DNA of 64,000 nucleotides from a virus. Its lineage: Duplodnaviria > Caudoviricetes. Shown here piece after piece: positions 19,083-41,024 of the stretch (positions are counted from its first letter, which is position 1; each line of letters starts with the position of its first letter). The translations under genes were made by a program, and so were the position numbers. The notes under the pieces were generated by a model that saw only the letters and a program-made list of their open reading frames with translations, was not told where the DNA came from and did not search any database. The DNA is taken from positions 128,001-192,000 of the IMG/VR virus record IMGVR_UViG_3300031466_000001, one strand, 5' to 3'.

Positions 19083-20260
19083 TCCCCAGATAAATACCTA
19101 TCAAACAGGTATTCTCTCATTTTCTCTATCGAAATGTTTTTCTGATATTTCTCTTTAATATAACGCGAAATCTTTTCTTCTACGGGTATTTTCTTATCAA
19201 ATATGAACCCATATCTTTCCAGAAGTATATTAATTTTTCTTTCCATCTCTTTATTCTTAACTACTTTGCCGTTGTTGTTAATTTTCAATTTAAACTTCTT
19301 ATACTTGCTGAATACACTGTTAAGCATTGATGTTAACAATGAAGGATTTGGATGATTTTCAGGTATATTAACTTCTAAACGTAAATAATCCCTGTTATCT
19401 GCCAAATTGTCTACTAGTTTAACAAGATAATCTATCTGATCTTCAATTGAATTATCTGGGTTGCAATCAACTTCCATAGTTTCAAATTTTCTAGCGGTTT
19501 TATTTACAATAAATTCGGTTTTAAATTCAGATGTGATTGGCGAATAGCAAAATAAATAATATCCTTTATCCTCTTCTTCTCCAAATGCCCATCTTGAAAA
19601 AGAATTAGTGTAGAAAAATCTATTTTTGATCACTATTTTTTTATGGATATGACCGAAAAAGATCGGACCTTTACAAATTTCGATAAGCTCATCGACTTTG
19701 AAGACCGGTGCTTTAGGCATAGTCATTTCACTTTCTTGTGTTGCTGCCATATGTAATGCTTCTTGAATGAGTCCATGACCGAAAATACTATCATATTGCT
19801 TAGAAAAATAATCTTTATAGTATTCATTTTTATCTTCGATATATTCTTCTGGTATATACAACACATGATAATCTTCAAATAACCACTCAGATTCTACATT
19901 TTGGATAATTTTTACATCACAATCGGCATTTGTAAGTAATGCCTCGATTATTTCCAGTTGATTGTTATCATGAGATTCTGTACCTTTAACGATTCTCAGT
20001 TTAGAATTCTTTTTCGAGCAAATTTTTACTAATCTATTGAGAAATAATGCCAAATATTTAGCGTGACTTGAGTTAAAAGATATTTTATTATTAAGAGTAT
20101 CCCCACAAAGGATAATAAAATCAAGAACCGGCATATTTTCAGCCGGTTCTAGAAGAGATTTTTCAATTTCATGAAACCAAATGTCAGCTTCAAAAGCTCC
20201 ACAATGTAAATCTCCTACAGCTATCCCAACATATGCAGGATTTTTTATTTCAACCTTCAA
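19079..20260 (-). CDS. sbcD: SbcD/Mre11-like nuclease (metallophosphoesterase)
   Basis: GDLH, GD, GTESHD, GHG and GHIH motifs; probable TTG start at 20260 (ORF extends to 20296). Confidence 0.85.
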   Translation of the reverse strand: MKVEIKNPAYVGIAVGDLHCGAFEADIWFHEIEKSLLEPAENMPVLDFIILCGDTLNNKISFNSSHAKYLALFLNRLVKICSKKNSKLRIVKGTESHDNNQLEIIEALLTNADCDVKIIQNVESEWLFEDYHVLYIPEEYIEDKNEYYKDYFSKQYDSIFGHGLIQEALHMAATQESEMTMPKAPVFKVDELIEICKGPIFFGHIHKKIVIKNRFFYTNSFSRWAFGEEEDKGYYLFCYSPITSEFKTEFIVNKTARKFETMEVDCNPDNSIEDQIDYLVKLVDNLADNRDYLRLEVNIPENHPNPSLLTSMLNSVFSKYKKFKLKINNNGKVVKNKEMERKINILLERYGFIFDKKIPVEEKISRYIKEKYQKNISIEKMREYLFDRYLSGE

Positions 20261-28143: not shown

Positions 28144-28764
28144 ATGGCTGATATGAATAGGTTTGCTGTTTCTGCTCTTAGTAGAGACAGAAAGGCAGAA
28201 GCATTGCCTGAAGAACTATTAGTTCATAAACCGACAGGTCAAATGCTGATTAAAAGACCGGATGGTCGTATTATATCATATGATAAAATTTCACGTCTTA
28301 AAACTCATATAGATTTTTTAGAATCCAGTCATAGTATTATTGGTATCGATGGTGATCTCTGTCTGTTGGAATTGGATCACATAGAACTACCGAATACTGT
28401 ACAATATGAATCTAATATACTTGACAACCCTCTTACTTTAGGCGATTCACCTGTATCGAAAATTTTAATATCCATGGATATTGATTGTATGGAATTTGTA
28501 AATGGGGAAGCTTTTATCTTAAGAGATCTTCCAAGCATCAGGTTCGAATTCGAATTTGTTGATGAAAATGATCAAACTCATTCTGTAACTAAAACTGTAC
28601 CTCTAAATAAACTATCGACAAATATTTTTAATGTATTGAATTACAGTCCTAATTCTACGCCTATGAATGCAACACTAAATGGTATTTACATTGAAGAAAA
28701 TCCTTCTAACGTTGGTAAGGTTTTGGAAAATATACTGCATAGTATATTAATTATTTTAGAATAA
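28144..28764 (+). CDS. Putative tail-associated protein
   Basis: Late promoter at 28097-28108, RBS AAGGAGG. Confidence 0.6.
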   Translation: MADMNRFAVSALSRDRKAEALPEELLVHKPTGQMLIKRPDGRIISYDKISRLKTHIDFLESSHSIIGIDGDLCLLELDHIELPNTVQYESNILDNPLTLGDSPVSKILISMDIDCMEFVNGEAFILRDLPSIRFEFEFVDENDQTHSVTKTVPLNKLSTNIFNVLNYSPNSTPMNATLNGIYIEENPSNVGKVLENILHSILIILE

Positions 28765-28783
28765 AAAGGCGGGTGATTTTTAT

Positions 28784-29218
28784 ATGGCAACTTTAAGAAA
28801 ATTAAAAAACTTCAGCGAAAATAACCTAACAACATTGGATAAAATTATCGCTATAACTCTCGGAGATTCCGATATAGATTGGTATGATGAAACCAAAATT
28901 TATAATGCCGATGATTTAATTATTAGGGTAAATCCTTCTACTGGGAAGAAGGAGATTTTATCTTGTAAAAAATCCGGGGCGACTGGTCCATTTGATATTA
29001 ATGATTGGCAAGTTGTAAACATGACCAATATTTCATCAACTAGCGTAATCCCAGTATCTGAAGAAGAACCTCCGAATCCAAAACCGAATATGATTTGGTT
29101 TAAAAATATGGGGGAGTCACCAGATTTCGGTGACAACATTATAATAATTATAGGTAATGTTAGTCTCGACGGAACAACCGAATTTTGGTTTGATTCCAAT
29201 AACAGAGACGGCGAATAG
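28784..29218 (+). CDS. Putative tail-fibre adaptor protein
   Basis: W/Y-rich carbohydrate-binding-like segment and a VSEEEPPNPKPNMIWF adaptor motif. Confidence 0.55.
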   Translation: MATLRKLKNFSENNLTTLDKIIAITLGDSDIDWYDETKIYNADDLIIRVNPSTGKKEILSCKKSGATGPFDINDWQVVNMTNISSTSVIPVSEEEPPNPKPNMIWFKNMGESPDFGDNIIIIIGNVSLDGTTEFWFDSNNRDGE

Positions 29219-29251
29219 AAAAACAGTAAAAGAAAGGGGGTAAGATGAGAA

Positions 29252-31405
29252 ATGAGCAGTAAAAACATTCAGATTCGTCACAAGAATGGTAGTGAATGGG
29301 ATAATTTATACCCAAAAACAAAAGCGGAATTAGTAGAAGGTCTTGATGAGCAACTTGCCGGAAAGGTTGATAAAGAAGAAGGTAAAGGTCTTTCTACTGA
29401 AGATTATACTACAGAAGAAAAGAATAAACTTGCGGGCATTGAGGAAGGAGCCAACAAATACGTTCATCCAACTAGTGCTGGTAATAAACATATTCCTTCT
29501 GGCGGTGCGCCTAACCAGGTACTTAAATATGGCGGTTCGTCAGGAACCGCAACATGGGGTGCTCTGACATCTGCAGATATTCCTACATTGGCTCTTAGTA
29601 AGATTTCCGATGCAGGTACAGCAGCTTCCAGAGATATCGGTACTTCTGCTGGTAATGTGCCTGTATTGGATAGCAATGGTAAACTTGATGTTAATGTCCT
29701 TCCTGCAATTGCTATTTCGGATACTTTCGTTGTCGGAAGCGAAGGAGAAATGCTGGGTCTTACTGCGGAAGTTGGTGATATCGCGGTACGATCGGATATC
29801 AACAAAACATTCATTTTGAGAGCAGAACCTGCATCCGTAGTTGGCAACTGGCAAGAACTTTTGACTCCGACTTCCCCTGTACAATCTGTTGCAGGTAAAA
29901 CCGGTGCAGTTACACTGGTTAAAGGTGACGTGGGACTCGGAAACGTCCAAAACTATGGAATAGCAACACAGGAAGAAGCAGAAGCCGGAACGTCCGATAC
30001 CGCGTACATGACGCCGCTTAAAACAGCGCAGGCGATTGCTGCACTTGCACCCGCGCCGGATGCTTCGGAAGTTTCGCTTAGTTCACCGAATTTCACTTCT
30101 ACCAACGTCCGGGATGGAATGGATGAACTTTTTCAATCTGTCAGTGATGGGAAAAATCAGATCGCTTCCGCCATCACTGACATGGGACAGTCTGCTTCAG
30201 GAGGCGACACGTTTGCGCAGTTGTCAAGCAAAATTCGGGACATCTCCAAGGACGCGAACGCGGCTGTTGGGGATGTTTTGACCGGTAAGACGTTTTATCA
30301 GGGCGGAGTAAAGCGCACCGGCACGATGCCCAATAACGGATCGGTTTCCCAAACGCTGACATCACAAGGCGAAGAATACACGATCCCGGAGGGATACCAC
30401 GACGGCACCGGCACGGTCACGACCGACATCGTGAATCTGTCCGCAGGAAATATCCGAGCCGGTGCGACGGTAGGCGGCGTTGATGGTACGTTCACTAGCG
30501 ACGCGACAGCCACGGCTGGTCAAATCTTGTCTGGCCGGACGGCGTATGTTAACGGCTCGAAGGTAACCGGCAGCATGATCAACAATGGAGCCGTCAGTCA
30601 AACCTTGACCACGCAGGGGGCGTCGTACACAATCCCGGCAGGTTATCACAATGGCAGCGGCACAGTCACGGCCAATATCACCAACTTGACGGCGGCCAAT
30701 ATCAAGGCTGGTACGACGGTCGGCGGCGTATCTGGAACATTCACAAGCGACGCAACCGCAACAGCCGCACAAATCTTGTCTGGCCGGACGGCGTATGTTA
30801 ACGGCTCGAAGGTAACCGGCACGATGCCAGTCAAAACAAATGATTATGGCGCACCGCGTACAGGCCAAACTGGGCGTCTGTATGTGACACCGGAAGCAGG
30901 ATACCATGACGGGACTGTAAGGGTCTATACGGACGACGCTAATTTTAATGCTGCCAATATCAAGTCTGGGGTTACGCTGTTCGGAATAACCGGTACGTAT
31001 GCGCCGATTTCCGTAGGTAGTACAACCCTGACATTTAACCGATCCGGCTCCGGTAACAATGTTACGTCGATTATCTATTATGCGAATTACACGCCGCCCA
31101 AGACAAACTTTTTGGGGTCGTTCCAAATACCCGTTACGTTCACAATCGGGAACATTGAATATAAAGGAGACCCGTTTAACAGCATCACGATCGGATATCC
31201 GACAAACCTAATCTTCGGCTATGGTTTGTACATTGTCGACCCGACCGTTAATGCAGAAATACAAATCAGCGCCATTTATAATAGTAGCACTGGCCGTATT
31301 CAACTACAGATTGGTAACCCGTCCACAGCAAGTCCTAAAGCGTTGTTTACCAATATCAGCACCAATAGCTTTACAGCGGGTTTACGGTATGTTTCATGGG
31401 AGTGA
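29252..31405 (+). CDS. Tail fibre protein (chimeric: phage-like N-terminus, foreign GC-rich C-terminus)
   Basis: W..LYPKT N-motif, KLAGIEEGANKY.HP, VQSVAGKTGAVTL, 83-aa TSDATAT...IPAGYH repeats; base composition changes at ~29932. Confidence 0.85.
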   Translation: MSSKNIQIRHKNGSEWDNLYPKTKAELVEGLDEQLAGKVDKEEGKGLSTEDYTTEEKNKLAGIEEGANKYVHPTSAGNKHIPSGGAPNQVLKYGGSSGTATWGALTSADIPTLALSKISDAGTAASRDIGTSAGNVPVLDSNGKLDVNVLPAIAISDTFVVGSEGEMLGLTAEVGDIAVRSDINKTFILRAEPASVVGNWQELLTPTSPVQSVAGKTGAVTLVKGDVGLGNVQNYGIATQEEAEAGTSDTAYMTPLKTAQAIAALAPAPDASEVSLSSPNFTSTNVRDGMDELFQSVSDGKNQIASAITDMGQSASGGDTFAQLSSKIRDISKDANAAVGDVLTGKTFYQGGVKRTGTMPNNGSVSQTLTSQGEEYTIPEGYHDGTGTVTTDIVNLSAGNIRAGATVGGVDGTFTSDATATAGQILSGRTAYVNGSKVTGSMINNGAVSQTLTTQGASYTIPAGYHNGSGTVTANITNLTAANIKAGTTVGGVSGTFTSDATATAAQILSGRTAYVNGSKVTGTMPVKTNDYGAPRTGQTGRLYVTPEAGYHDGTVRVYTDDANFNAANIKSGVTLFGITGTYAPISVGSTTLTFNRSGSGNNVTSIIYYANYTPPKTNFLGSFQIPVTFTIGNIEYKGDPFNSITIGYPTNLIFGYGLYIVDPTVNAEIQISAIYNSSTGRIQLQIGNPSTASPKALFTNISTNSFTAGLRYVSWE
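29857..29931 (+). repeat. 75-bp perfect direct repeat, copy 1
   Basis: acttttgactcc...aaaggtgacgt, identical to 31889-31963. Confidence 0.95.
30242..30826 (+). repeat. Tandem 249-bp (83-aa) fibre repeats, about 2.3 copies
   Basis: ttcactagcgacgc at 30491 and ttcacaagcgacgc at 30740; shared caaatcttgtctggccggacggcgtatgttaacggctcgaaggtaaccggca. Confidence 0.8.
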
Positions 31406-31455
31406 AATCGTGATGACGAGAGAGGACTCATTATACAGATCGCATCGGCGGCCAA

Positions 31456-31608
31456 GCCGAGCAATATAAACAAATCACCGGATTTGATTATGAAGCGTAA
31501 GGCTCCGCCGAATAGGCGGGGCCTCATAATCTGCACAGTGTGGTACAATTAGACGCTATGACGGCAGAAGAATATGAGCAGATTACGAGCGAGCCGTACA
31601 CACCCTAA
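31456..31608 (+). pseudogene. Two XkdX-like C-terminal remnants
   Basis: AEQYKQITGFDYEA* (31456-31500) and VVQLDAMTAEEYEQITSEPYTP* (to 31608), each followed by a hairpin. Confidence 0.6.
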
Positions 31609-31805
31609 TTAGGCGCAGAGACGTGTAATTAGACCCTGCTTAATGCGGGGTCTTTTTGTTGACTTCGTAGTGACAAAAGGGAAATTTTATACGATAATAG
31701 TGTTAAAGTACTCGTAAAGTACGATTACGTTACCGTCGCTGGAAGGGGTGGAAAAGTTCCGATGGACTTTACGAGCCTTGGAGAGTACGGCGTAGGAATC
31801 GCGTC

Positions 31806-32483
31806 ATGACTTCTCCCGATGGTATAAACTGGACGATTCGTTCAACTCCGGCGGATAACAACTGGTATTCCGTCACTTATGGCAACGGACTTTTGACTCC
31901 GACTTCCCCTGTACAATCTGTTGCAGGTAAAACCGGTGCAGTTACACTGGTTAAAGGTGACGTTGGTCTTGATAATGTTGAAAACTACGGTATCGCTTCT
32001 CAAGCTGATGCTGAAGCCGGAACAGCAAATAATAAATACATGACCCCTGCGAGAGTTAAGCAAGCAATTGATGCGTTTGCTGCTCCTAAAGAGCATCAAC
32101 ATGTCGCTTCGGATATCACTCAAGATTCGACTCACCGTTTTGTAACTGATGCAGAAAAAGCTGCATGGAATGCAAAAGCAGACAAAACGGTAGCTACTAC
32201 CAGCAATAACGGCTTGATGTCGTCCGCTGATAAAGCAAAACTCGATGGAATCGAAGCTGGCGCCAATAAGTACGTACATCCGACTGGCGATGGTAATCTC
32301 CATGTGCCTCCAACTGGAACCAGCAACAACAATAAAGTGCTGAAAGCAGGGGCTACTGCTGGAAGCCTTTCCTGGGGTTATGTTAATTGGAATGAAGTAG
32401 ATGGTAAACCTGTTAACCTTGCATCTATTGTGGTTTCTGGTACTGAACCTACAAATGCTGATTTCTGGTATCAGGAAATTTAA
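31806..32483 (+). CDS. Displaced C-terminal half of the original tail-fibre gene
   Basis: Resumes LLTPTSPVQSVAGKTG in the same translation as the 29252 gene; no clear RBS; ends in VVSGTEPTNADFWYQEI. Confidence 0.65.
   Translation: MTSPDGINWTIRSTPADNNWYSVTYGNGLLTPTSPVQSVAGKTGAVTLVKGDVGLDNVENYGIASQADAEAGTANNKYMTPARVKQAIDAFAAPKEHQHVASDITQDSTHRFVTDAEKAAWNAKADKTVATTSNNGLMSSADKAKLDGIEAGANKYVHPTGDGNLHVPPTGTSNNNKVLKAGATAGSLSWGYVNWNEVDGKPVNLASIVVSGTEPTNADFWYQEI
31889..31963 (+). repeat. 75-bp perfect direct repeat, copy 2
   Basis: Identical to 29857-29931. Confidence 0.95.
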
Positions 32484-32700
32484 TTTAATCTATTTGTGAA
32501 TAGTCTATAAATTAAATGAAAAAACACTTTTTGGGGTCGGATGGATTAAAAAGTCCATCCGACCGCCAAGTTTCTATTATAATATAGACAGACAACTATA
32601 TTTACCAAAATTTAAATGGAAAACAAAAATGTAATAAATATTTATTCTATCTGTATTTATAAGGAGAATTAACAAAATATAAAGAACGGAGGTATTTTAA

Positions 32701-33450
32701 ATGGCAAAAAATATACTACAGAAACAATACGTACCTGGTGTCGGATGGGTTGAGCTTCATCCAATTACTAAAGCGTCCAATATTATAGATTCAAACGGTC
32801 TTAGTGTACAAGAGCATATTGATGCTAAAAATCCACATGGAACTGATAAAAGTGATGTAGGTCTTGGTAATGTTGAAAACTATGGTATTGCATCTAAAAC
32901 TGAAGCCGAAGCCGGAACTGCAAGTAACAAGTACATGACACCACAAAGAACTTCCCAGGCAATTGCAGCTTTGTCGCCTGTGAAGTCGGTTGCTGGTAAG
33001 ACGGGTGCAGTGACTCTCGTAAAGGGAGATGTAGGTCTCGGAAACGTTGAGAACTATGGCATTGCATCTAAAACTGAAGCCGAAGAGGGAACTGCAAGTA
33101 ATAAGTATATGACTCCTGAGAGAACATCTCAGGCGATTGCTGTTCAAGCCCAGGCTATTGCAGATGAAGTTGAAAACAGATCAAAAGAGTATGCTGATCT
33201 GTTGATGGAACAGAAGATTATTGAAATTCCTTCTAGGTCAGGTAAAGACGAGAATGGAATTTTCACGATCGTTGAATATTACAGACCAAATAATACATTA
33301 GCACGAAAAACCGAACTTAGCGGTGGGTCGTCTCCGAATTATACAACAAGAACCATAACCTTCTATGCAGAAGACGGTATGACTGTGACAAAAACAGTCA
33401 CAAGAACCTTAATTTATGATGAGGATGGAGATTTCCTGCGAGAAGAATAA
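32701..33450 (+). CDS. Tail fibre/adaptor protein
   Basis: W.ELHP.TKA N-motif, NPHG..KSDVGLGNVENY, two GIAS..EAE.GT..NKYMTP repeats; late promoter at 32622-32633. Confidence 0.8.
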   Translation: MAKNILQKQYVPGVGWVELHPITKASNIIDSNGLSVQEHIDAKNPHGTDKSDVGLGNVENYGIASKTEAEAGTASNKYMTPQRTSQAIAALSPVKSVAGKTGAVTLVKGDVGLGNVENYGIASKTEAEEGTASNKYMTPERTSQAIAVQAQAIADEVENRSKEYADLLMEQKIIEIPSRSGKDENGIFTIVEYYRPNNTLARKTELSGGSSPNYTTRTITFYAEDGMTVTKTVTRTLIYDEDGDFLREE

Positions 33451-33741
33451 AAATAAGGGATAAGGTATTTAACCTTATCCTTTATTTTTTTACATTGAAA
33501 TTCACTTCAAAAATATCATCCTAATTACAGTTATTTTTCCATCGTTAATAGAGATTAATAAAAATAAGAATTTCGTGACAAAAACAGATACATAATAAGA
33601 TAAAAAATATCCTTAAATGTCATATGATTAATTCTATTTCATCATAACCAAAAAATTGTGAGATCTCAAATCTCGGGAACTCAAATTGTAATTGAGTTTG
33701 TGAGTAAAATTATAGATTAATAAAAAATTGGGGTGAAAGAA

Positions 33742-35871
33742 GTGAACGATTTAATTTATCATGGGTTAATTGGGAAAAAAATTGATTCTGTAGAGGTGCT
33801 AAATAATGAATTTATTGCTACAGATGACAATGTGGAGCTGGCTAGTTCATATAATTTACCTAATACTGGACGCTCTGTCTCATTCTCTCCCGATGGTCAA
33901 TATATAGCTGTAGGACATAGTGGTTCTCCTTATTTTACTCTATTAAAAAGAAATGGAGATAATGTAAAACTAGCTAGTAATTATATATTACCTAGTACTG
34001 GCTATGGTGTATCATTCTCTCCCGATGGTCAATATATAGCTGTAGCACATACTGCTTCTCCTAATTTTACTTTACTAAAAAGAAATGGAGATAATGTAGA
34101 ATTAGCTAGTACTTATACATTACCTGGCAATGGAAACTCTGTATCATTCTCTCCTGATGGTCAATATATAGCTGTAGGATATGATCTTTCTCCTCGTTTT
34201 ACTTTACTAAAAAGAAATGGAGATAATGTAGAATTAGCTAGTAATTATATATTACCTGGTATTGGACGTTCTGTCTCATTCTCTCCCGATGGTCAATATA
34301 TAGCTGTAGGGCATTATGCTTCTCCTTATTTTACTCTATTAAAAAGAAATGGAGATACTGTAGAACTAGCTAGTACTTATACATTACCTAGTGATGGCTT
34401 AGGTGTATCATTCTCTCCTGATGGTCAATATATAGCTGTAGCACATAATGGTTCTCCTTATTTTACTTTACTAAAAAGAAATGGAGATAATGTAGAATTA
34501 GCTAGTACTTATACACTATCTAACTATGGCTTTGGTGTATCATTCTCTCCCGATGGTCAATATATAGCTGTAGGATATTATGGTTCTCCTTATTTTACTT
34601 TACTAAAAAGAAATGGAGATAATGTAGAATTAGCTAGTACTTATACATTACCTGGCAATGGCACGGGTGTATCATTCTCTCCCGATGGTCAATATATAGC
34701 TGTAGGACATTTTAGTTCTCCTTATTTTACTCTATTAAAAAGAAATGGAGTACAAGAAGCCATCGAAATTAAAACTAAAGTAAATGTTATTAAAGAAATT
34801 GATGGTCAGTTAAAAGAGGTTAAAAGTAATAAGATATTTAGAGATGTAAAAGAATTAGTTTATAAGAATAATTATGAAAAAGTACTACTAGCTGATACTT
34901 ATACATTACCCAATATCGCCACGGGTGTATCATTTTCTCCCGATGGTCAATATATAGCTGTAGGACATTATGATTCTCCTTATTTTACTTTACTAAAAAG
35001 AAATGGAGATAATGTAGAATTAGCTAGTAATTATACATTAACTGGTAATGCTGGAGGTGTATCATTCTCTCCTGATGGTAAATATATAGCTGTAGCATAT
35101 TATGGTTCTCCTTATTTTACTCTATTAAAAAGAAATGGAGATAATGTAGAACTAGCTAGTACTTATACATTACCTAGTTATGGCCATGGTGTATTATTCT
35201 CTCCCGATGGTCAATATATAGCTGTAGCACATTGGGGTTCTCCTCATTTTACTTTACTAAAAAGAAATGGAGATAATGTAGAACTAGCTAGTAATTATAC
35301 ATTACCTGATATTGGCTTGAGAGTATCATTCTCTCCCGATGGTCAATATATAGCTGTAGGACATTATGGTTCTCCTTATTTTACTCTATTAAAAAGAAAT
35401 GGAGATACTGTAGAACTAGCTAGTACTTATACATTACCTGGTGCTACCGAAAATGTATCATTCTCTCCCGATGGTCAATATATAGCTGTAGGATATTATG
35501 GTTCTCCTTATTTTACTCTATTAAAAAGAAATGGGGATACTGTAGAATTAGCTAGTAATTATACATTACCTAATATTGGATACTCTGCCCCATTCTCTCC
35601 CGATGGTCAATATATAGCTGTAGCACATAATGGTTCTCCTTATTTTACTTTACTAAAAAGAAATGGAGATAATGTAGAATTAGCTAGTACTTATACATTA
35701 CCTGGTGATGGCTATAGTGTATCATTCTCTCCTGATGGTCAATATATAGCTGTAGGACATAATGGTTCTCCTTATTTTACTTTACTAAAAGCAGGAGGAA
35801 CTTTTTCAAAAACCCCTCCAATCTTTATTGAATATAGAGGTAAAAGATATAAGATGCGTACAATTAATTGA
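33742..35871 (+). CDS. Double 7-bladed beta-propeller (WD40-like) protein A, putative receptor-binding protein
   Basis: 14 x 44-aa repeats ...VSFSPDGQYIAV..SPYFTLLKRNGDNVEL in two blocks of 7 joined by a linker; probable GTG start at 33742. Confidence 0.9.
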   Translation: MNDLIYHGLIGKKIDSVEVLNNEFIATDDNVELASSYNLPNTGRSVSFSPDGQYIAVGHSGSPYFTLLKRNGDNVKLASNYILPSTGYGVSFSPDGQYIAVAHTASPNFTLLKRNGDNVELASTYTLPGNGNSVSFSPDGQYIAVGYDLSPRFTLLKRNGDNVELASNYILPGIGRSVSFSPDGQYIAVGHYASPYFTLLKRNGDTVELASTYTLPSDGLGVSFSPDGQYIAVAHNGSPYFTLLKRNGDNVELASTYTLSNYGFGVSFSPDGQYIAVGYYGSPYFTLLKRNGDNVELASTYTLPGNGTGVSFSPDGQYIAVGHFSSPYFTLLKRNGVQEAIEIKTKVNVIKEIDGQLKEVKSNKIFRDVKELVYKNNYEKVLLADTYTLPNIATGVSFSPDGQYIAVGHYDSPYFTLLKRNGDNVELASNYTLTGNAGGVSFSPDGKYIAVAYYGSPYFTLLKRNGDNVELASTYTLPSYGHGVLFSPDGQYIAVAHWGSPHFTLLKRNGDNVELASNYTLPDIGLRVSFSPDGQYIAVGHYGSPYFTLLKRNGDTVELASTYTLPGATENVSFSPDGQYIAVGYYGSPYFTLLKRNGDTVELASNYTLPNIGYSAPFSPDGQYIAVAHNGSPYFTLLKRNGDNVELASTYTLPGDGYSVSFSPDGQYIAVGHNGSPYFTLLKAGGTFSKTPPIFIEYRGKRYKMRTIN
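33841..35790 (+). repeat. 14 x 132-bp blade repeats (7+7)
   Basis: Period 132 bp (gctagt at 33841, 33973...); second block starts at 34891. Confidence 0.95.
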
Positions 35872-36167
35872 TATGGGGATTTAAAATAAAAGATTTATAT
35901 TTACATGAAATAATAAAAAGACATGCTTCAGCAAAAATACTAAAAAAAAATAAATTCAATTATACTGATGATGGACTAAATCTTATAAGATCATATATTT
36001 CATCATATATTGTATATGATGTGTCATTTCCCCCTTTGGTCAATTTATTCACGGTTCGTGACACGCTTTTCACCTTATTAAAGGCTAGTGATATATTTAA
36101 ATCAAACCCCTTCCCAACTATTGTCGAATGTAGAGGGAGAAAATATAGAGTTAGGGAAAAATCTTAA
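35868..36167 (+). CDS. Short paralog of the propeller proteins lacking the repeat array
   Basis: DLYLHEII...KIL.KNKF..TDD matches the N-cap; FTLLKA..IF.S.P..IVE.RG.KY matches the C-cap; one degenerate blade. Confidence 0.6.
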   Translation: MIWGFKIKDLYLHEIIKRHASAKILKKNKFNYTDDGLNLIRSYISSYIVYDVSFPPLVNLFTVRDTLFTLLKASDIFKSNPFPTIVECRGRKYRVREKS

Positions 36168-36184
36168 TAAAGGAGGTAAGTAAT

Positions 36185-38308
36185 TTGGAAGAGCTTTATT
36201 TTCACGAATTGCTACGACAAGGCGTTTCAGTAAATATTCTAAATAATAAATTTATTGCTACAGATGACAATGTGGAGCCGGCTAGTTCATATAAATTGCC
36301 TAACTATGGCTATAGTGTTTCATTCTCTCCCGATGGTCAATATATAGCTGTAGGACATGTTGGTTCTCCTCGTTTTACTTTACTAAAAAGAAATGGAGAT
36401 AATGTAGAATTAGCTAGTACTTATACATTATCCGATACTGGACGCTCTATCTCATTCTCTCCCGATGGTCAATATATAGCTATAGGACATAGCGGTTCTC
36501 CTGGTTTTACTTTACTAAAAAGAAATGGAGATAATGTAGAACTAGCTACTAAATATACATTACCTGATGTTGGATATGGTACGGCATTCTCTCCCGATGG
36601 TCAATATATAGCTGTGGGACATAATGGTTCTCCTTATTTTACTCTATTAAAAAGAAATGGAGATAATGTAGAACTAGCTAGTACTTATACATTATCCGCT
36701 ACTGGACGTTCTGTCTCATTCTCTCCCGATGGTCAATATATAGCTGTAGCACATGCTGGTTCTCCTCGTTTTACTTTACTAAAAAGAAATGGAGATAATG
36801 TAGAACTAGCTAGTACTTATACATTACCTAGTGATAGCTTTGATGCATCATTCTCTCCTGATGGTCAATATATAGCTGTAGCACATTATGTTTCTCCTCA
36901 TTTTACTCTATTAAAAAGAAATGGAGATAATGTAGAACTAGCTAGTACTTATACATTACCTAGTACTGGCTTGGGTGTATCATTCTCTCCCGATGGTCGA
37001 TATATAGCTGTAGCACATTATGGTTCTCCTTATTTTACTTTACTAAAAAGAAATGGAGATAATGTAGAACTAGCTAGTACTTATACATTACCTAGTGTCG
37101 CCATGGATGTATCATTCTCTCCCGATGGTCAATATATAGCTGTAGGATATATTAATTCTCCTCCTTATTTTACTCTATTAAAAAGAAATGGAGTACAAGA
37201 AGCCATCGAAATTAAAACTAAAGTAAATGTTATTAAAGAAATTGATGGTCAGTTAGAAGAGGTTAAAGGTAATAAGATATTTAGAGATGTAAAAGAATTA
37301 GTTTATAAGAATAATTATGAAAAAGTATTACTAGCTAGTACTTATACATTACCTTTTACTAGCTTGGATGTATCATTCTCTCCCGATGGTCAATATATAG
37401 CTGTAGAACATAATAGTTCTCCTTATTTTACTTTACTAAAAAGAAATGGAGATAATGTAGAACTAGCTAGTACTTATACATTACCTGGTGGTGCCGAAGG
37501 TATATCATTCTCTCCCGATGGCAAATATATAGCTGTAGCACATTATGGTTCTCCTTATTTTACTTTACTAAAAAGAAATGGAGATAATGTAGAATTAGCT
37601 AGTACTTATACATTATCTGACGGTGGCTATGGTGTATCATTCTCTCCCGATGGTCAATATATAGCTGTAGGACATCATGGTTCTCCTTATTTTACTCTAT
37701 TAAAAAGAAATGGAGATAATGTAGAACTAGCTAGTAATTATACATTACCTAGTAATGGCTTGGGTGTATCATTTTCTCCCGATGGTCAATATATAGCTGT
37801 AGGATATAATGGTTTTCCTTATTTTACTTTACTAAAAAGAAATGGAGATAATGTAGAATTAGCTAGTACTTATACATTACCTGGTACTAGCTATGGTGTA
37901 TCATTCTCTCCCGATGGTCAATATATAGCAGTGGGACATTTTGGTTCTCCTTATTTTACTCTATTAAAAAGAAATGGAGATAATGTAGAATTAGCTAGTA
38001 CTTATACATTACCTGGTAATGCCGAAGATGTATCATTCTCTCCCGATGGTCAATATATAGCTGTAGGACATTGGGGTTCTCCTTGTTTTACTCTATTAAA
38101 AAGAAATGGAGATAATGTAGAACTAGCTAGTAATTATACATTACCTGGTACTAGCTATGGTGTATCATTCTCTCCCGATGGTCAATATATAGCAGTGGGA
38201 CATAGCGATTCTCCTTATTTTACCCTATTAAAAGCAGGAGGAACTTTTTCATCACAAAATCCTATTATTATAAAATATAGAGATGTCGAATACGAACTTG
38301 TGTGGTAA
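36185..38308 (+). CDS. Double 7-bladed beta-propeller (WD40-like) protein B
   Basis: Same 14 x 44-aa architecture and near-identical linker to protein A; RBS AGGAGG, TTG start. Confidence 0.9.
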   Translation: MEELYFHELLRQGVSVNILNNKFIATDDNVEPASSYKLPNYGYSVSFSPDGQYIAVGHVGSPRFTLLKRNGDNVELASTYTLSDTGRSISFSPDGQYIAIGHSGSPGFTLLKRNGDNVELATKYTLPDVGYGTAFSPDGQYIAVGHNGSPYFTLLKRNGDNVELASTYTLSATGRSVSFSPDGQYIAVAHAGSPRFTLLKRNGDNVELASTYTLPSDSFDASFSPDGQYIAVAHYVSPHFTLLKRNGDNVELASTYTLPSTGLGVSFSPDGRYIAVAHYGSPYFTLLKRNGDNVELASTYTLPSVAMDVSFSPDGQYIAVGYINSPPYFTLLKRNGVQEAIEIKTKVNVIKEIDGQLEEVKGNKIFRDVKELVYKNNYEKVLLASTYTLPFTSLDVSFSPDGQYIAVEHNSSPYFTLLKRNGDNVELASTYTLPGGAEGISFSPDGKYIAVAHYGSPYFTLLKRNGDNVELASTYTLSDGGYGVSFSPDGQYIAVGHHGSPYFTLLKRNGDNVELASNYTLPSNGLGVSFSPDGQYIAVGYNGFPYFTLLKRNGDNVELASTYTLPGTSYGVSFSPDGQYIAVGHFGSPYFTLLKRNGDNVELASTYTLPGNAEDVSFSPDGQYIAVGHWGSPCFTLLKRNGDNVELASNYTLPGTSYGVSFSPDGQYIAVGHSDSPYFTLLKAGGTFSSQNPIIIKYRDVEYELVW
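36281..38233 (+). repeat. 14 x 132-bp blade repeats (7+7)
   Basis: Same unit as 33841-35790; second block starts at 37334; blade 7 has a one-codon insertion (SPPY). Confidence 0.95.
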
Positions 38309-38385
38309 AAAAATACTACATCTACATTTTAATAAATAAATTATAAAAAAACATCTATTAAAATCTAAATGGGAGGTATACATTT

Positions 38386-38685
38386 ATGCCAATCGTAAGT
38401 GGTGAACAAATCGCCCCTGATAAAATCCGGGTGAGGTCGATAACTTATACAACGAACACTCCACCGAACGACAATTGGTATTCGGTTCCATCAGTACCCG
38501 AATGGCCAGAGGTTGAAATCGGGAAGCGACCTGAGATGTATTTTAATCCACAGACAAAGGAGTTCAGCTTTGAGATTGTTGATGCTCCTTTGACTCCGGA
38601 ACAAGAAAAAGATCTCGAAATTCAACGTCTGAACCAGCTTCTTGACGATGCTACAAGCTTATTATTAGAAAACGAGGTGTTGTAA
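38386..38685 (+). CDS. Putative tail-fibre assembly chaperone
   Basis: PEVEIGK.PEMYFNP.T.EF..E..D.PLTPEQ followed by a coiled coil, typical of genes after Firmicute fibre genes. Confidence 0.6.
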   Translation: MPIVSGEQIAPDKIRVRSITYTTNTPPNDNWYSVPSVPEWPEVEIGKRPEMYFNPQTKEFSFEIVDAPLTPEQEKDLEIQRLNQLLDDATSLLLENEVL

Positions 38686-38894: not shown

Positions 38895-41024
38895 TTATTT
38901 CCTCTTGCTCTTCAGAGACATAATCGGCATACTGCGTAATTTGAAACTCTTGACAGCCTGCTCCATAAAATACTCTTGGACATTGAATGGAACAGGACTT
39001 TTCAAAAGTTCGTACTGATTGTCTTTATTGAGAATGTAGGTGTTGAATGTGTCGCGGAAATACATTTTCAAAATAGACAAGAGTTTATTTCTGGAATTTT
39101 CGTCCGTAATCGGAACCAGAAGTTCAACCCGTCTGTCCAAATTCCGCGTCAACATATCAGCACTTGAAATGAAAATATCTGACTTTCCATTATTGTAGAA
39201 GAAGTAAATTCTACTATGCTCTAGAAATCTACCAACAACACTCTTGATGCTGATGTTCGAATTGATTTTCTTCATCGAGCATATACCTCTACAGATAATG
39301 GATATCTTGACACCCTGCTCAGAGGCCTCATACAGCTTCTTGATAATACCCAGATCAGAAAGGGAGTTAAGCTTCAACGTAATGAAAGCTTGTCTACCCT
39401 TTTGAGCATTCTCGATCTCTCGATCGATAAGCTGATACAATCTCAATCTCAGATTGTACGGAGCATAGAAAATTTTGCTCACTTCGTCTCTGGGATCGGA
39501 GAAACCTGACAAGACATTAAATATCGTCAACAGGTCATCCGCTATTTTGCTGCTGGATGTGAAGTAGGAAATATCGGTATAGATTGACGCAGTCTTGTCG
39601 TTGTAATTTCCTGTACCGATATGGCAATACGTTTTGAGATTTTTCTTTCCTTTCCTCACAACCAATATAAATTTACAATGTGTTTTCAACTCCTCAATAC
39701 CATAGATCAATTTACAGCCGGATACTTTTAGTTTTTCTATCAACGACATATTTCTATTCTCATCAAACCTTGCTTTAATTTCGAGAAGAACACTTACCTG
39801 CTTTCCTCTTTCAGCAGCCCTACACAACGCCTCGACAATCGGGGACTCCGCAGAAGATACTCTATACAGAGTCAATTTGATTGCCAAGACATCATTATCC
39901 TCGGCCGCATGTTCGAGGAATTTGATAACCGGTGTGAACGACTCGTAAGGGTGATGAAGAATGAGATCGCCGTTGTCGATAGCAGTAAACATATCGTGCT
40001 CGCCGATCAGATCTTCTGGATACTGAGGGTTGAACGGGTCGTACTCGTAAGCCGCATTTCTTATCGGCTTACTTAAGAGAAACGACATGTCTACGATGTT
40101 TTCACATTTAAACACTTGCCTCTTGTCAATGTCGAAGATTTTGGTCAGAAGTTTGAGGGTTTCCTTAGGAACATCACTGTCGATATCCATGAAGATGGGT
40201 TTACTAAACTCCCGTTTAATGAGAGTTTCCCTCATTCGGTCGACAATATAAATATCCCGTCTTCCCTCAATTTCAATATCCGCCTCACGAATGATTCTCA
40301 TACATCCCCTATAGATGATACTCTTGTTGATAAATACCTTGTGGAGAAAATTAAAGATAATATCCTCCAACAAGATATATCGTTCTTCATCGCTCTCGTC
40401 AGTCTCAATCTTGTACAAACGATCAAGACCATGGAGTGGGATGATGGACATTACATTCAGATTTGGATTTTTCTTGTCCCCTAGAGAAGCTATTATGCAT
40501 AGCTGCTTAGATTTAATAAGGGGAAATTCTTTGGTTGAGTCAAAGGTGATCGGGGTCAGCAACGGATAAATGTTTCTTTCGAAAAGCTTTCTTACATAAT
40601 CAACTTCCTTTTCACTGAGATGCTTGAACTTACAAATCGTGAAATTGTTTTTACGCAGTTTCTTTCTCAGTTTTTCAAAGCTTTCTTGCTGGATTTCTTT
40701 GAAAGAAATAATTTCCCGGAGCAAGAGTTCATATTCTTGCTCCGGGAGAAGACCAGCAATATCCGTTTCTGTATACCCCAATCTGAGTTTATTAAGGATA
40801 GATGAAAATCTAACCATAATAAACTCATCCAGGTTCGATTCCGTGATACCCAAGAACTTAAGTCTCTCCAAAAGAGGAACCTCAGTTCTCATAGTTTGAT
40901 GGAGAACCCTTTTATTGAACTCCATCCAACTCAATTCACGATTCATATAGAATCCTGGATTATTAAACTTTGACCTAATCCTATCTCTTTCAACGTCGAA
41001 GAGATCACTAAGATTGTTAGTCAT
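38895..41024 (-). CDS. ppk1: Polyphosphate kinase 1
   Basis: NRELSW..FN.RVL, LLERLKFLGI..SNLDEF.MVR, HHPYESF, K.TLYR, EIKARFDE..N, LKTHCK, GTGNYN, RFLEHSR, SSAD...RNLDRRVE. Confidence 0.95.
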   Translation of the reverse strand: MTNNLSDLFDVERDRIRSKFNNPGFYMNRELSWMEFNKRVLHQTMRTEVPLLERLKFLGITESNLDEFIMVRFSSILNKLRLGYTETDIAGLLPEQEYELLLREIISFKEIQQESFEKLRKKLRKNNFTICKFKHLSEKEVDYVRKLFERNIYPLLTPITFDSTKEFPLIKSKQLCIIASLGDKKNPNLNVMSIIPLHGLDRLYKIETDESDEERYILLEDIIFNFLHKVFINKSIIYRGCMRIIREADIEIEGRRDIYIVDRMRETLIKREFSKPIFMDIDSDVPKETLKLLTKIFDIDKRQVFKCENIVDMSFLLSKPIRNAAYEYDPFNPQYPEDLIGEHDMFTAIDNGDLILHHPYESFTPVIKFLEHAAEDNDVLAIKLTLYRVSSAESPIVEALCRAAERGKQVSVLLEIKARFDENRNMSLIEKLKVSGCKLIYGIEELKTHCKFILVVRKGKKNLKTYCHIGTGNYNDKTASIYTDISYFTSSSKIADDLLTIFNVLSGFSDPRDEVSKIFYAPYNLRLRLYQLIDREIENAQKGRQAFITLKLNSLSDLGIIKKLYEASEQGVKISIICRGICSMKKINSNISIKSVVGRFLEHSRIYFFYNNGKSDIFISSADMLTRNLDRRVELLVPITDENSRNKLLSILKMYFRDTFNTYILNKDNQYELLKSPVPFNVQEYFMEQAVKSFKLRSMPIMSLKSKRK

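What the first reader, a model, noticed from the sequence alone, without database searches (positions are those of the whole stretch)
33742..38308. 28-blade hypervariable beta-propeller repertoire: candidate receptor-diversifying system
Seen: two adjacent genes each carry 14 copies (7+7) of a 132-bp unit with an almost invariant scaffold, even at silent sites. Amino-acid differences concentrate in two short loops: LP-xxGxx-V (NTGRS, STGYG, GNGNS, SDGLG, GATEN, DVGYG, FTSLD...) and (G/A)(H/Y)-xx-SP-x (SG, TA, DL, YA, WG, FG...). Binary markers (act tta cta vs act cta tta, gaa tta vs cta, ccc vs cct, T/N, G/A, H/Y) appear in mixed combinations across both genes. The ~140-bp inter-propeller linker is nearly identical in both. 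Known: such loops form the ligand-binding face of WD40-type propellers, and a homogenised scaffold with hypervariable loops is the pattern of fungal HNWD WD40 arrays. Inference: sitting between fibre genes and fibre chaperones, this is a recombination-shuffled multivalent receptor-binding library.
Basis: partly seen in the sequence, partly recalled or inferred. Interest (0 to 1): 0.9.

Follow-up and report, generated by a model that had tools for sequence, protein, structure and literature searches.

The report
Hypervariable-loop double beta-propellers in phage tail module
A giant phage carries two neighbouring genes, each encoding two seven-bladed propeller domains made of near-identical 44-residue blades whose surface loops all differ; they sit with the tail-fibre genes and change quickly between close strains, so they are probably fast-evolving host-binding parts, though binding itself is untested.

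Summary
Genes A (33742-35871) and B (36185-38308) each hold 14 in-frame 132-bp units. Each folds as two 7-bladed WD40/PD40 propellers (pLDDT ~90). The closest solved structure is 2YMU, a "highly repetitive propeller".

Variation sits in 8 of 44 codons, in the D-A and B-C loops, which lie on one face by topology. Loop dN is 0.70 against scaffold dS 0.17. An independent set of 30 blades gives the same excess (ratio 3.5, bootstrap 2.0-6.5).

No reverse transcriptase was found in the window's large ORFs or in two complete relatives, so this is not a DGR.

- A strain 0.6% diverged genome-wide has gene A blades 42% different at loop nucleotides and 5% at scaffold.
- A phage unrelated in its gyrase genes shares gene B with 1 mismatch in 2124 nt.
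- Relatives fuse the same blades to LamG, cadherin-like and beta-helix fibre proteins inside tail modules.
- One relative shows a 203-nt exact out-of-register blade transfer between paralogs.

Best reading (~0.6): virion-borne binding modules diversified by blade recombination plus selection, a phage analogue of fungal HNWD arrays. Virion location and ligand are inferred.

The scan had already noted this same stretch in another reading of this genome.

The parts
33742..35871 (+). Gene A: stand-alone double 7-bladed propeller. The ORF is open from GTG 33733; the likely start is GTG 33742. It is the variable member of the pair between strains.
   Evidence: 88.7% nt identity to the G002 orthologue; 10% nt divergence from near-identical strain G001
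33829..34752 (+). Gene A, blades 1-7 (first propeller), 7 x 132 bp
34753..34878 (+). Gene A inter-propeller linker (42 aa, low pLDDT), nearly identical to the linker of gene B
34879..35802 (+). Gene A, blades 8-14 (second propeller)
35868..36167 (+). 99-aa 'mini' paralog. It keeps the N-cap and C-cap of A/B around one decayed blade.
   Evidence: 100% identical in G002; absent between the G003 propeller genes; fold prediction uninformative
36185..38308 (+). Gene B: second stand-alone double 7-bladed propeller
   Evidence: 1 mismatch in 2124 nt versus G002
36269..37195 (+). Gene B, blades 1-7 (blade 7 has one extra Pro codon)
37196..37321 (+). Gene B inter-propeller linker
37322..38245 (+). Gene B, blades 8-14
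38386..38685 (+). Conserved 99-aa ORF that follows the propeller genes. A 93-aa homologue sits in the same position in G003. A homologous stretch lies unannotated between the tail fibre and holin genes in phage D6E. Possible fibre-associated partner; function unknown.
   Evidence: no Pfam or PHROG family
35786..38500 (+). Block shared almost identically (1 mismatch) with G002, a phage otherwise unrelated at DNA level. Its left breakpoint is at the end of the gene A array.
29252..33450 (+). Upstream fibre-like genes on the same strand (717, 225 and 249 aa). Most of this stretch is replaced in the near-identical strain G001.
   Evidence: PHROG tail fibre / minor tail / virion structural matches; window 28302-32806 replaced by ~0.9 kb in G001

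Best explanation
Genes A and B of this jumbo phage each encode two seven-bladed WD40/PD40-type beta-propellers joined by a 42-aa linker, with short conserved N- and C-terminal caps.

The blades are kept nearly identical to one another within and between the two genes by recombination or gene conversion (concerted evolution). Eight codons per blade are driven apart by diversifying selection. These codons lie in the D-A and B-C loops, which together line one face of each propeller.

New specificities arise in three ways: point change in the loops, transfer or duplication of whole blades between non-homologous positions and between paralogous genes, and exchange of whole genes between phages. No dedicated mutator such as a reverse transcriptase is involved.

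The proteins are most likely tail-fibre-associated binding modules that recognise a variable host-surface ligand, and so act as host-range determinants.

Shown here: the fold, the loop positions, the dN excess, the turnover between strains, the lateral transfer, the tail-module context and the fusions in relatives.

Inferred: presence in the virion, receptor binding, and the nature of the ligand.
For: Fold:
- Pfam PD40 scores 141 bits (cut-off 20.9) and WD40 112 bits (cut-off 27).
- The AF2 model has pLDDT ~90 over two 7-bladed domains.
- The best PDB match is 2ymu_A, 'highly repetitive propeller', at 34% identity.

Loops:
- In the DSSP assignment, strands fall at unit positions 1-9, 14-19, 25-30 and 36-42. 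The variable codons 12-16 and 31-35 are therefore the D-A and B-C loops.

Selection:
- Loop dN is 0.70-0.72, against scaffold dS 0.17 and the loops' own dS 0.32-0.33.
- In 30 independent blades from G001 and G002 the ratio is 3.5 (bootstrap 2.0-6.5).
- The same positions vary in the metagenomic relatives P0005, P0012, P0014 and P0019 and in locus L020.

No mutator:
- No RVT_1 match in G001, or in G002 and G003, which CheckV rates 100% complete.
- No reverse transcriptase among the window ORFs of 250 aa or more.

Turnover:
- G001 is 100% identical over 5.4 kb of gyrase genes and ~0.6% diverged over 17.5 kb.
- Yet its gene A blades 1-4 differ at 41.7% of loop nucleotides and 5.3% of scaffold nucleotides. 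At loop sites this equals the divergence of random blade pairs (42%); at scaffold sites it is somewhat below it (5.3% against 8.5%) but far above the genome baseline.
- G002's gene A differs in the same way.
- In G002 gene A, blades 1 and 2 differ by only 2 nt, a recent duplication or conversion.
- L020 has a 203-nt exact tract shared out of register between two paralogous genes.

Concerted evolution:
- The 7+linker+7 architecture is conserved in G003, but positional orthology of blades is absent (diagonal 0.599 versus off-diagonal 0.595).

Tail context:
- Fibre-like genes lie upstream on the same strand.
- In G003 the propeller genes sit between a 'tail protein' and 'virion structural protein' PHROGs.
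- P0005 (67% identical blades plus a beta-helix) lies between the tape measure gene and Dit/Tal.
- P0014 has a tail-fibre-type N-terminus (my recognition, not tested against a family), then LamG and a C-terminal propeller. It occurs as three tandem paralogs.
- G002 carries the same blades in a cadherin-like-repeat protein and in a LamG protein.

Precedent:
- Beta-propellers are established phage receptor-binding or depolymerase folds (PMC6795507; PMC12491483).
Against: - There is no virion proteomics, expression data or binding data.
- The stand-alone proteins have only ~30-aa and ~25-aa caps and no recognisable fibre-anchor or trimerisation domain.
- PHROG matches of the propeller itself are mostly 'unknown function'. 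One weak match is to a 'virion structural protein'.
- The gene cluster abuts a non-structural gene (PPK1) on the other strand.
- The within-blade mosaic could be recurrent mutation. The PHI-type test was not significant.
- The loop codons were chosen by their variability, although the out-of-sample test mitigates this.
- The sharp difference between A and B across phages may reflect whole-allele replacement rather than in-situ shuffling.
Confidence: 0.6

Rival explanations
1. The propellers are not virion parts. They act inside the infected cell, or as released proteins, as binders of variable host proteins. For example they could be decoys or inhibitors of polymorphic defence or surface-assembly proteins. 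The hypervariable face would then track host protein variation.
For: - The proteins stand alone, with no anchor domain.
- WD40 top faces are classic protein-protein platforms, and the closest solved relative belongs to a cyanobacterial family linked to innate immunity (PMC9218822).
- A non-structural gene (PPK1) is adjacent.
Against: - The genes sit in or next to tail or virion modules in several unrelated phages.
- The same blades are covalently fused to LamG, cadherin-like, beta-helix and tail-fibre-type N-terminal domains.
- Between near-identical strains they vary together with the fibre cassette.
Confidence: 0.15
2. This is ordinary recent amplification with neutral decay. The blades were amplified recently from one blade, as in many 'highly repetitive' propellers, and the loops differ only because they are unconstrained. 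No adaptive diversification is involved.
For: - Continuous amplification of propellers from single blades is well documented, viruses included (PMC9218822).
- G003's orthologue looks like a more differentiated version, with within-array identity 0.52.
Against: - Loop dN exceeds synonymous divergence 2-4 fold, so the loops evolve faster than neutral.
- The same loop positions are hypervariable in independent lineages.
- Gene A's loops are rewritten between strains that are 0.6% diverged.
- The conserved 7+7 architecture without positional orthology argues for homogenisation rather than fresh amplification.
Confidence: 0.1
3. The propeller is an enzyme, such as a polysaccharide depolymerase, lyase or lactonase-type propeller, rather than a pure binding module.
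For: - n-bladed propellers make up 18% of predicted Klebsiella prophage depolymerases (PMC12491483).
- There is a Pfam Lactonase match.
- P0005 fuses the propeller to a beta-helix.
Against: - No conserved candidate catalytic residues sit on the variable face. The invariant residues are structural scaffold (SPDG, YIA, FTLLK).
- Every blade has different loop residues, which is atypical for a single active site.
- The Lactonase match covers the generic blade only.
Confidence: 0.08
4. The variation comes from targeted hypermutation by a diversity-generating retroelement or another dedicated mutator.
For: Variation is mostly at codon positions 1 and 2 with T kept at position 3 (NNT-like) in several loop codons. 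This superficially resembles DGR variable regions.
Against: - No RVT_1 in two complete relatives or in G001.
- No reverse transcriptase among the window's large ORFs.
- No template-repeat copy of the unit exists outside the two genes in the window.
- 28 dispersed variable regions do not fit the one-template DGR architecture.
Confidence: 0.03
5. The arrays are an assembly artefact: a collapsed or chimeric repeat.
For: G001's contig ends inside gene A, which shows that the repeat can break assemblies.
Against: - Both ORFs are intact and in frame over 14 units.
- Gene B is reproduced with 1 mismatch in an independent contig.
- Gene A occurs as intact 14-blade alleles in G002 and G003.
- The longest exact repeat is 96 nt.
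Confidence: 0.02

Closest known systems
Fungal HNWD / HET-D, HET-E WD-repeat arrays (Podospora anserina NLR-like proteins; PMC1805685, PMC2873952)
   Same: - WD-type propeller repeats with very high internal identity.
- Concerted evolution within and between paralogous genes.
- A few codons per repeat under positive diversifying selection, on the interaction face.
- Repeat exchange as the source of new specificities.
   Different: - The host is a phage, not a fungus.
- There is no NACHT NTPase or effector domain: the proteins are stand-alone double propellers, or fibre fusions in relatives.
- The blade number is fixed at 7+7 in the three alleles seen, rather than variable.
- RIP is absent.
- The presumed ligand is the host surface, not an intracellular non-self protein.
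Highly repetitive prokaryotic propellers (WRAP family; PDB 2YMU; PMC9218822)
   Same: - Best structural and sequence match: 34% identity, 14 blades forming two 7-bladed propellers.
- Near-identical blades.
- Disrupted or decayed copies also occur (compare the 99-aa mini paralog).
   Different: - 44-aa PD40-like blades with an SPDG motif rather than canonical WD.
- Phage tail-module context rather than association with a STAND ATPase/TIR operon.
- The loop hypervariability and strain-level turnover documented here were not found in that paper: a search of its text found no 'hypervariable' and no 'phage'.
Beta-propeller receptor-binding or platform domains of phage tail fibres (e.g. S. aureus phage P68 five-bladed platform, PMC6795507; n-bladed propeller depolymerases, PMC12491483)
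   Same: - A propeller fold used at the business end of phage tail fibres.
- Located in tail modules.
- Relatives of the present blades are fused to fibre domains.
   Different: - Those propellers are 5- or n-bladed, with differentiated blades inside trimeric fibre proteins.
- Here the proteins are two stand-alone tandem 7-bladed propellers with homogenised blades and hypervariable loops.
- No structure or binding data exist for this family.
Diversity-generating retroelements targeting phage receptor-binding proteins (e.g. BPP-1 Mtd; tentaclins, PMC10743442)
   Same: The functional logic is the same: rapid diversification of a few surface residues on a constant scaffold in a tail-fibre protein.
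   Different: - There is no reverse transcriptase and no template repeat.
- Diversity is spread over 28 repeat units.
- It is generated by recombination and selection rather than adenine mutagenesis.

Membership tests
WD40/PD40 beta-propeller superfamily | Tandem ~40-46-aa repeats matching the family profiles above the curated cut-off | tested here: met
   PD40 scores 141 and 133 bits (cut-off 20.9). WD40 scores 112 and 101 bits (cut-off 27).
WD40/PD40 beta-propeller superfamily | Four-stranded antiparallel blades closed into a 7-bladed toroid | tested here: met
   The AF2 model has four strands per 44-aa unit, two 7-blade domains and pLDDT ~90. Foldseek finds 2ymu and double-propeller WD40 proteins at E<=1e-21. 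This is a prediction, not a solved structure.
Highly repetitive (recently amplified or homogenised) propellers | Very high sequence identity between blades of one protein | tested here: met
   Mean blade-to-blade aa identity is 0.75-0.78 within and between genes. Scaffold nt divergence is 8.5%.
HNWD-type hypervariable WD arrays | A few codons per repeat with dN above dS, on the interaction face | tested here: met
   Loop dN is 0.70 against scaffold dS 0.17. The out-of-sample ratio is 3.5 (2.0-6.5). The positions are the D-A and B-C loops. No likelihood site model could be run.
HNWD-type hypervariable WD arrays | Concerted evolution and repeat exchange within and between paralogs | tested here: met
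   - Blades do not cluster by gene and show no positional orthology to G003.
- In G002 gene A, blades 1 and 2 differ by 2 nt.
- L020 has a 203-nt out-of-register exact tract between paralogs.
- The intra-blade PHI-type test was not significant.
HNWD-type hypervariable WD arrays | N-terminal effector plus NACHT/STAND NTPase domain | tested here: not met
   Only ~30-aa and ~25-aa caps flank the propellers, and there are no NTPase Pfam matches. The arrays are an analogue of this family, not a member.
Diversity-generating retroelement target | Cognate reverse transcriptase and template repeat | tested here: not met
   No RVT_1 in G001-G003 or in the window's large ORFs. No extra unit copy elsewhere in the window. 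The window phage's full genome was not available.
Phage tail fibre / receptor-binding protein | Encoded in the tail or baseplate module | tested here: met
   Fibre-like genes lie upstream. Tail and virion PHROGs surround the G003 orthologues. P0005 lies between the tape measure gene and Dit/Tal.
Phage tail fibre / receptor-binding protein | N-terminal virion-attachment domain or fibre shaft | tested here: not met
   Absent from A and B. Present only in fused relatives (P0014, and the G002 1023-aa and 1685-aa proteins).
Phage tail fibre / receptor-binding protein | Physical presence in virions and binding to the host receptor | not testable with these tools
   This needs proteomics, cryo-EM or adsorption assays.

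The most novel reading that the evidence does not exclude
These jumbo phages may keep a genome-wide pool of interchangeable propeller blades. The window holds 28; sister phage G002 holds about 42 homogenised blades spread over four fibre-associated genes, one of them in inverted orientation, plus more diverged propellers in a fifth protein. The pool would work as a cassette library. Homologous recombination between the ~60-96-nt identical scaffold segments would move loop-bearing blades between positions and genes. The result would be a retroelement-independent host-range variation system, analogous to pilin or VlsE antigenic variation and to fungal HNWD repertoires, and possibly common in phage tail fibres.
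Probability: 0.3. Interest if true: 0.85.

Novelty: new variant of a known kind. Interest (0 to 1): 0.66.

Why it matters
Phage host range is set by receptor-binding proteins. The known fast routes to new specificities are DGR mutagenesis, invertible fibre segments and module swapping.

A propeller scaffold that is homogenised by recombination and carries selected hypervariable loops would be a further route. It would converge on the way fungal NLR-like proteins, and in logic lamprey VLRs, build recognition repertoires.

The pattern recurs in unrelated phages: a siphophage tail module, tandem LamG-propeller fibres, and jumbo phages. It may therefore be a widespread and so far undescribed class of receptor-binding module.

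The blades are nearly designer-like, with an invariant scaffold and eight variable positions. That makes them attractive for engineering binding specificity in laboratory phage-host systems and for predicting host range from sequence.

Tried and rejected
- DGR: rejected. No reverse transcriptase in G001-G003 or among the window's large ORFs.
- Assembly artefact: rejected.
- GenBank phages: no near DNA match. Only weak 25-35% tblastn matches to WD40 proteins of a few phages. The 890-aa upstream protein has no phage match.
- PHI-type permutation test for distance-dependent incompatibility within the 132-bp unit: not significant (p 0.38-0.72). Intra-blade recombination is therefore not demonstrated. 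The evidence for exchange is at whole-blade and gene level.
- Extra blade copies elsewhere in the 64-kb window: none.
- Complex prediction of gene B protein with the 99-aa downstream protein: verdict 'no answer'. This is not evidence either way.
- AF2 fold of the 99-aa mini paralog: pLDDT 41.6, uninformative.
The face assignment of the variable residues rests on DSSP plus propeller topology, not on measured distances.
Read-level heterogeneity, expression and Atlas look-alikes could not be examined, and read laying was therefore not used.
- Literature searches for hypervariable or repetitive WD40 propellers in phage fibres found no description of this family.
- My first attempt to align G001 with the window used a wrong anchor. 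It was corrected.

Full report
**1. What is there**

Tandem Repeats Finder reports two arrays of period 132 bp, with 14.6 and 14.5 copies and 80% matches, at 33876-35790 and 36307-38223. They lie in two intact + strand ORFs, 33733-35871 (712 aa) and 36185-38308 (707 aa).

The start of gene A is probably GTG 33742. It aligns with the ATG of the orthologue in a related contig.

Anchoring on the invariant SPDG motif gives 14 units per gene, spaced exactly 44 aa. One 42/43-aa linker follows unit 7, and blade 7 of gene B has one extra Pro codon.

Between the two genes lies a 99-aa ORF (35868-36167). It keeps the N- and C-terminal caps of its neighbours around one decayed blade. No further blade copies exist elsewhere in the window.

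**2. Fold**

Both proteins match PD40 and WD40 far above the Pfam cut-offs.

An AlphaFold2 model of protein A, built on a 10-sequence alignment, has mean pLDDT 84 and about 90 over residues ~30-340 and ~385-690. Each domain has seven four-stranded blades. The termini and linker are below 50.

Foldseek's best solved match is 2ymu_A, 'a highly repetitive propeller structure', at 34% identity. Eukaryotic tandem WD40 double propellers follow. BFVD holds many phage and giant-virus propeller proteins of similar fold.

**3. Where the variation is**

Per-codon statistics over the 28 blades show 20 of 44 codons with a single amino acid. Eight codons have 6-11 amino acids or high entropy:
- codons 12-16 (P-xx-G-xx);
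- codons 31, 32 and 35 ((G/A)(H/Y)-xx-SP-x).

In the model the strands fall at unit positions 1-9, 14-19, 25-30 and 36-42. The two variable segments are therefore the D-A loop (running into strand A) and the B-C loop.

In a four-stranded antiparallel meander, successive loops alternate faces. These two loops thus share a face, while the invariant SPDG (A-B) and NGD (C-D) loops lie on the other.

**4. Is it more than neutral?**

Nei-Gojobori pooling gives:

| Blade set | Loop dN | Loop dS | Scaffold dN | Scaffold dS |
|---|---|---|---|---|
| Window, all 28 blades | 0.72 | 0.33 | 0.066 | 0.17 |
| Window, 27 blades, blade B7 left out | 0.70 | 0.32 | 0.066 | 0.17 |

Because the loop codons were picked by their variability, I repeated the test with the same positions on 30 blades not used to define them. 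These came from G002 genes A, C and D and from G001 gene A. The result was dN(loop)/dS(scaffold) = 3.5, with bootstrap range 2.0-6.5.

The same positions are the variable ones in the metagenomic relatives P0005, P0012, P0014 and P0019. They are also variable in the tandem paralogs of locus L020 (loop dN 0.70 against scaffold dS 0.28).

The loops therefore change faster than synonymous sites. This means either diversifying selection or targeted mutation.

**5. Not a DGR, not an artefact**

No RVT_1 match exists in G001, or in G002 and G003, which CheckV rates 100% complete. None of the window's ORFs of 250 aa or more is a reverse transcriptase.

Gene B is reproduced with one mismatch in 2124 nt in an independent IMG/VR contig. 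The longest exact internal repeat is 96 nt. All alleles seen are intact 14-blade ORFs.

**6. Genomic setting**

The window is part of a jumbo phage. It encodes gyrase A and B, a DnaB-like helicase, an SF1 helicase, AAA ATPases and an RNA polymerase Rpb1-domain protein. It also has an Amidase_3+SLH endolysin and a full PPK1. The SLH domains point to an S-layer-bearing Bacillota host; this is an inference.

Upstream of gene A, on the same strand, lie three fibre-like genes that match tail fibre, minor tail and virion structural PHROGs.

Downstream lies a 99-aa ORF with no family match. It is conserved after the propeller genes of G003 at 37% identity. A similar stretch lies unannotated between the tail fibre and holin genes of thermophilic phage D6E.

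**7. Comparison between phages**

*G001 (71 kb, 29% complete).* It is the same phage at strain level:
- 100% identity over 5.4 kb of gyrase genes;
- about 0.6% divergence over 17.5 kb.

Yet window 28302-32806, the fibre cassette, is replaced by ~0.9 kb in G001. The first four blades of its gene A, where the contig ends, differ from the window as follows:
- 41.7% of loop nucleotides;
- 5.3% of scaffold nucleotides;
- only 1 of 96 nt in the N-cap.

Random blade pairs inside the window differ by 42% at loop nucleotides and 8.5% at scaffold nucleotides. Positional 'orthologues' are therefore as different at loop sites as random blades, and their scaffold divergence is about nine times the genome baseline.

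*G002 (207 kb, complete).* It has no DNA-level match to the window's gyrase genes. It nevertheless shares window 35786-38500 (the end of A, the mini gene and gene B) with a single mismatch. Its gene A is only 88.7% identical and has a different N-cap. Only 3 of the 14 window gene A blades have their positional counterpart in G002 as nearest neighbour.

The two genes thus behave differently. B has moved laterally as a block. A is a hot spot that varies together with the fibre cassette.

**8. Blade exchange**

Direct traces of whole-blade events are:
- in G002 gene A, blades 1 and 2 differ by 2 nt, and blades 3/6 and 11/12 by 5-7 nt;
- a blade of the G002 1685-aa protein is 5 nt from blade 6 of gene B;
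- in L020, a 203-nt exact tract joins blade 6 of one gene to blade 2 of the next paralog, out of register.

The 7+linker+7 architecture with caps is conserved in G003's 710-aa orthologue. Even so, there is no positional orthology of blades (0.599 on the diagonal against 0.595 off it), and blades do not cluster by gene. This fits concerted evolution rather than one-off amplification.

Within blades, 111 of 378 biallelic site pairs show four gametes. A PHI-type test found no dependence on distance, so intra-blade recombination is not shown.

**9. What relatives say about function**

The same homogenised blades occur in several fusion proteins and tail contexts:
- in G002, at the C-terminus of a 1023-aa protein with six cadherin-like beta-sandwich repeats, and in a 1685-aa protein with Laminin_G_3;
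- in P0014, after a tail-fibre-type N-terminus (my recognition, not tested against a family) and LamG, as three tandem paralogs each followed by a ~145-aa ORF;
- in P0005, at the N-terminus of a beta-helix (NosD/Beta_helix) protein encoded between the tape measure gene and Dit/Tal in a siphophage tail module;
- in G003, where the orthologues lie between a 'tail protein' and several 'virion structural protein' PHROGs.

Beta-propellers are established receptor-binding or depolymerase folds in phages (PMC6795507, PMC12491483).

All of this is circumstantial for A and B themselves. They lack any anchor domain and were not shown to be in virions.

**10. Interpretation**

The best-supported reading is that A and B are tail-fibre-associated binding modules. 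Their ligand-contacting face is diversified by selection, while recombination keeps the scaffold uniform and moves blades and whole genes around.

In mechanism this is the pattern described for fungal HNWD arrays: concerted evolution within and between paralogs, plus four selected codons on the interaction face (PMC1805685, PMC2873952). It is not a member of that family, because the NACHT and effector domains are absent.

Highly repetitive propellers, viral ones included, are known (PMC9218822). I found no description of hypervariable, homogenised propellers as phage fibre modules.

I rate it a new variant of a known kind.

**11. Limits**

- The complex prediction gave no answer.
- The mini-paralog fold was uninformative.
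- No likelihood codon model or read-level data could be used.
- The full genome of the window phage was not held.

Noticed in passing
window 28302-32806: Between the window phage and strain G001 (~0.6% diverged elsewhere), this 4.5-kb stretch of fibre-like genes is replaced by ~0.9 kb. It includes the GC-rich 717-aa fibre gene. The tail-fibre cassette is therefore a strain-level indel or replacement hot spot right next to the propeller genes.
   Followed up: partly
window 38895-41024 (- strand): A full-length polyphosphate kinase 1, with all four PPK domains, is encoded by the phage convergent to the propeller cluster. It is also present in G002.
   Followed up: partly
window, codons 38/39 of every blade (e.g. 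33940-33945): A synonymous dimorphism, TTA-CTA versus CTA-TTA (Leu-Leu), is in perfect linkage across all 28 blades (15 versus 13). There is no simple positional pattern. The reason for a coupled double synonymous change is unexplained.
   Followed up: no
L005:5874-8945 (+) versus L003:2408-6974 (same contig G002, opposite strands, ~12 kb apart): In G002 a blade-bearing fibre gene lies in inverted orientation relative to genes A and B. Homologous recombination between inverted blades could invert the intervening segment and swap propeller ends. This was not tested.
   Followed up: no
L003:7645-8652: G002 has an extra 335-aa ORF between the 99-aa ORF and PPK1 that the window lacks. It has a C-terminal hydrophobic segment and no family match.
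   Followed up: no
L022 (phage D6E NC_019544.1) 19960-20103: A stretch 50% identical to residues 41-88 of the 99-aa ORF lies in an unannotated gap between the tail fibre gene and the holin gene of Deep-sea thermophilic phage D6E. This suggests an unannotated small fibre-associated gene family.
   Followed up: partly
L020:1-885: An IS605 OrfB / Cas12f-like TnpB gene sits just upstream of the giant 1604-aa protein and the three tandem LamG-propeller fibre genes in the P0014 contig.
   Followed up: no
L018:2027-6967 (- strand, G002): A 1646-aa protein carries two more propellers, only 33-36% identical to the window's blades. It sits next to 998-aa and 1685-aa giant proteins at the contig start. 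The phage thus carries both homogenised and differentiated propellers.
   Followed up: partly
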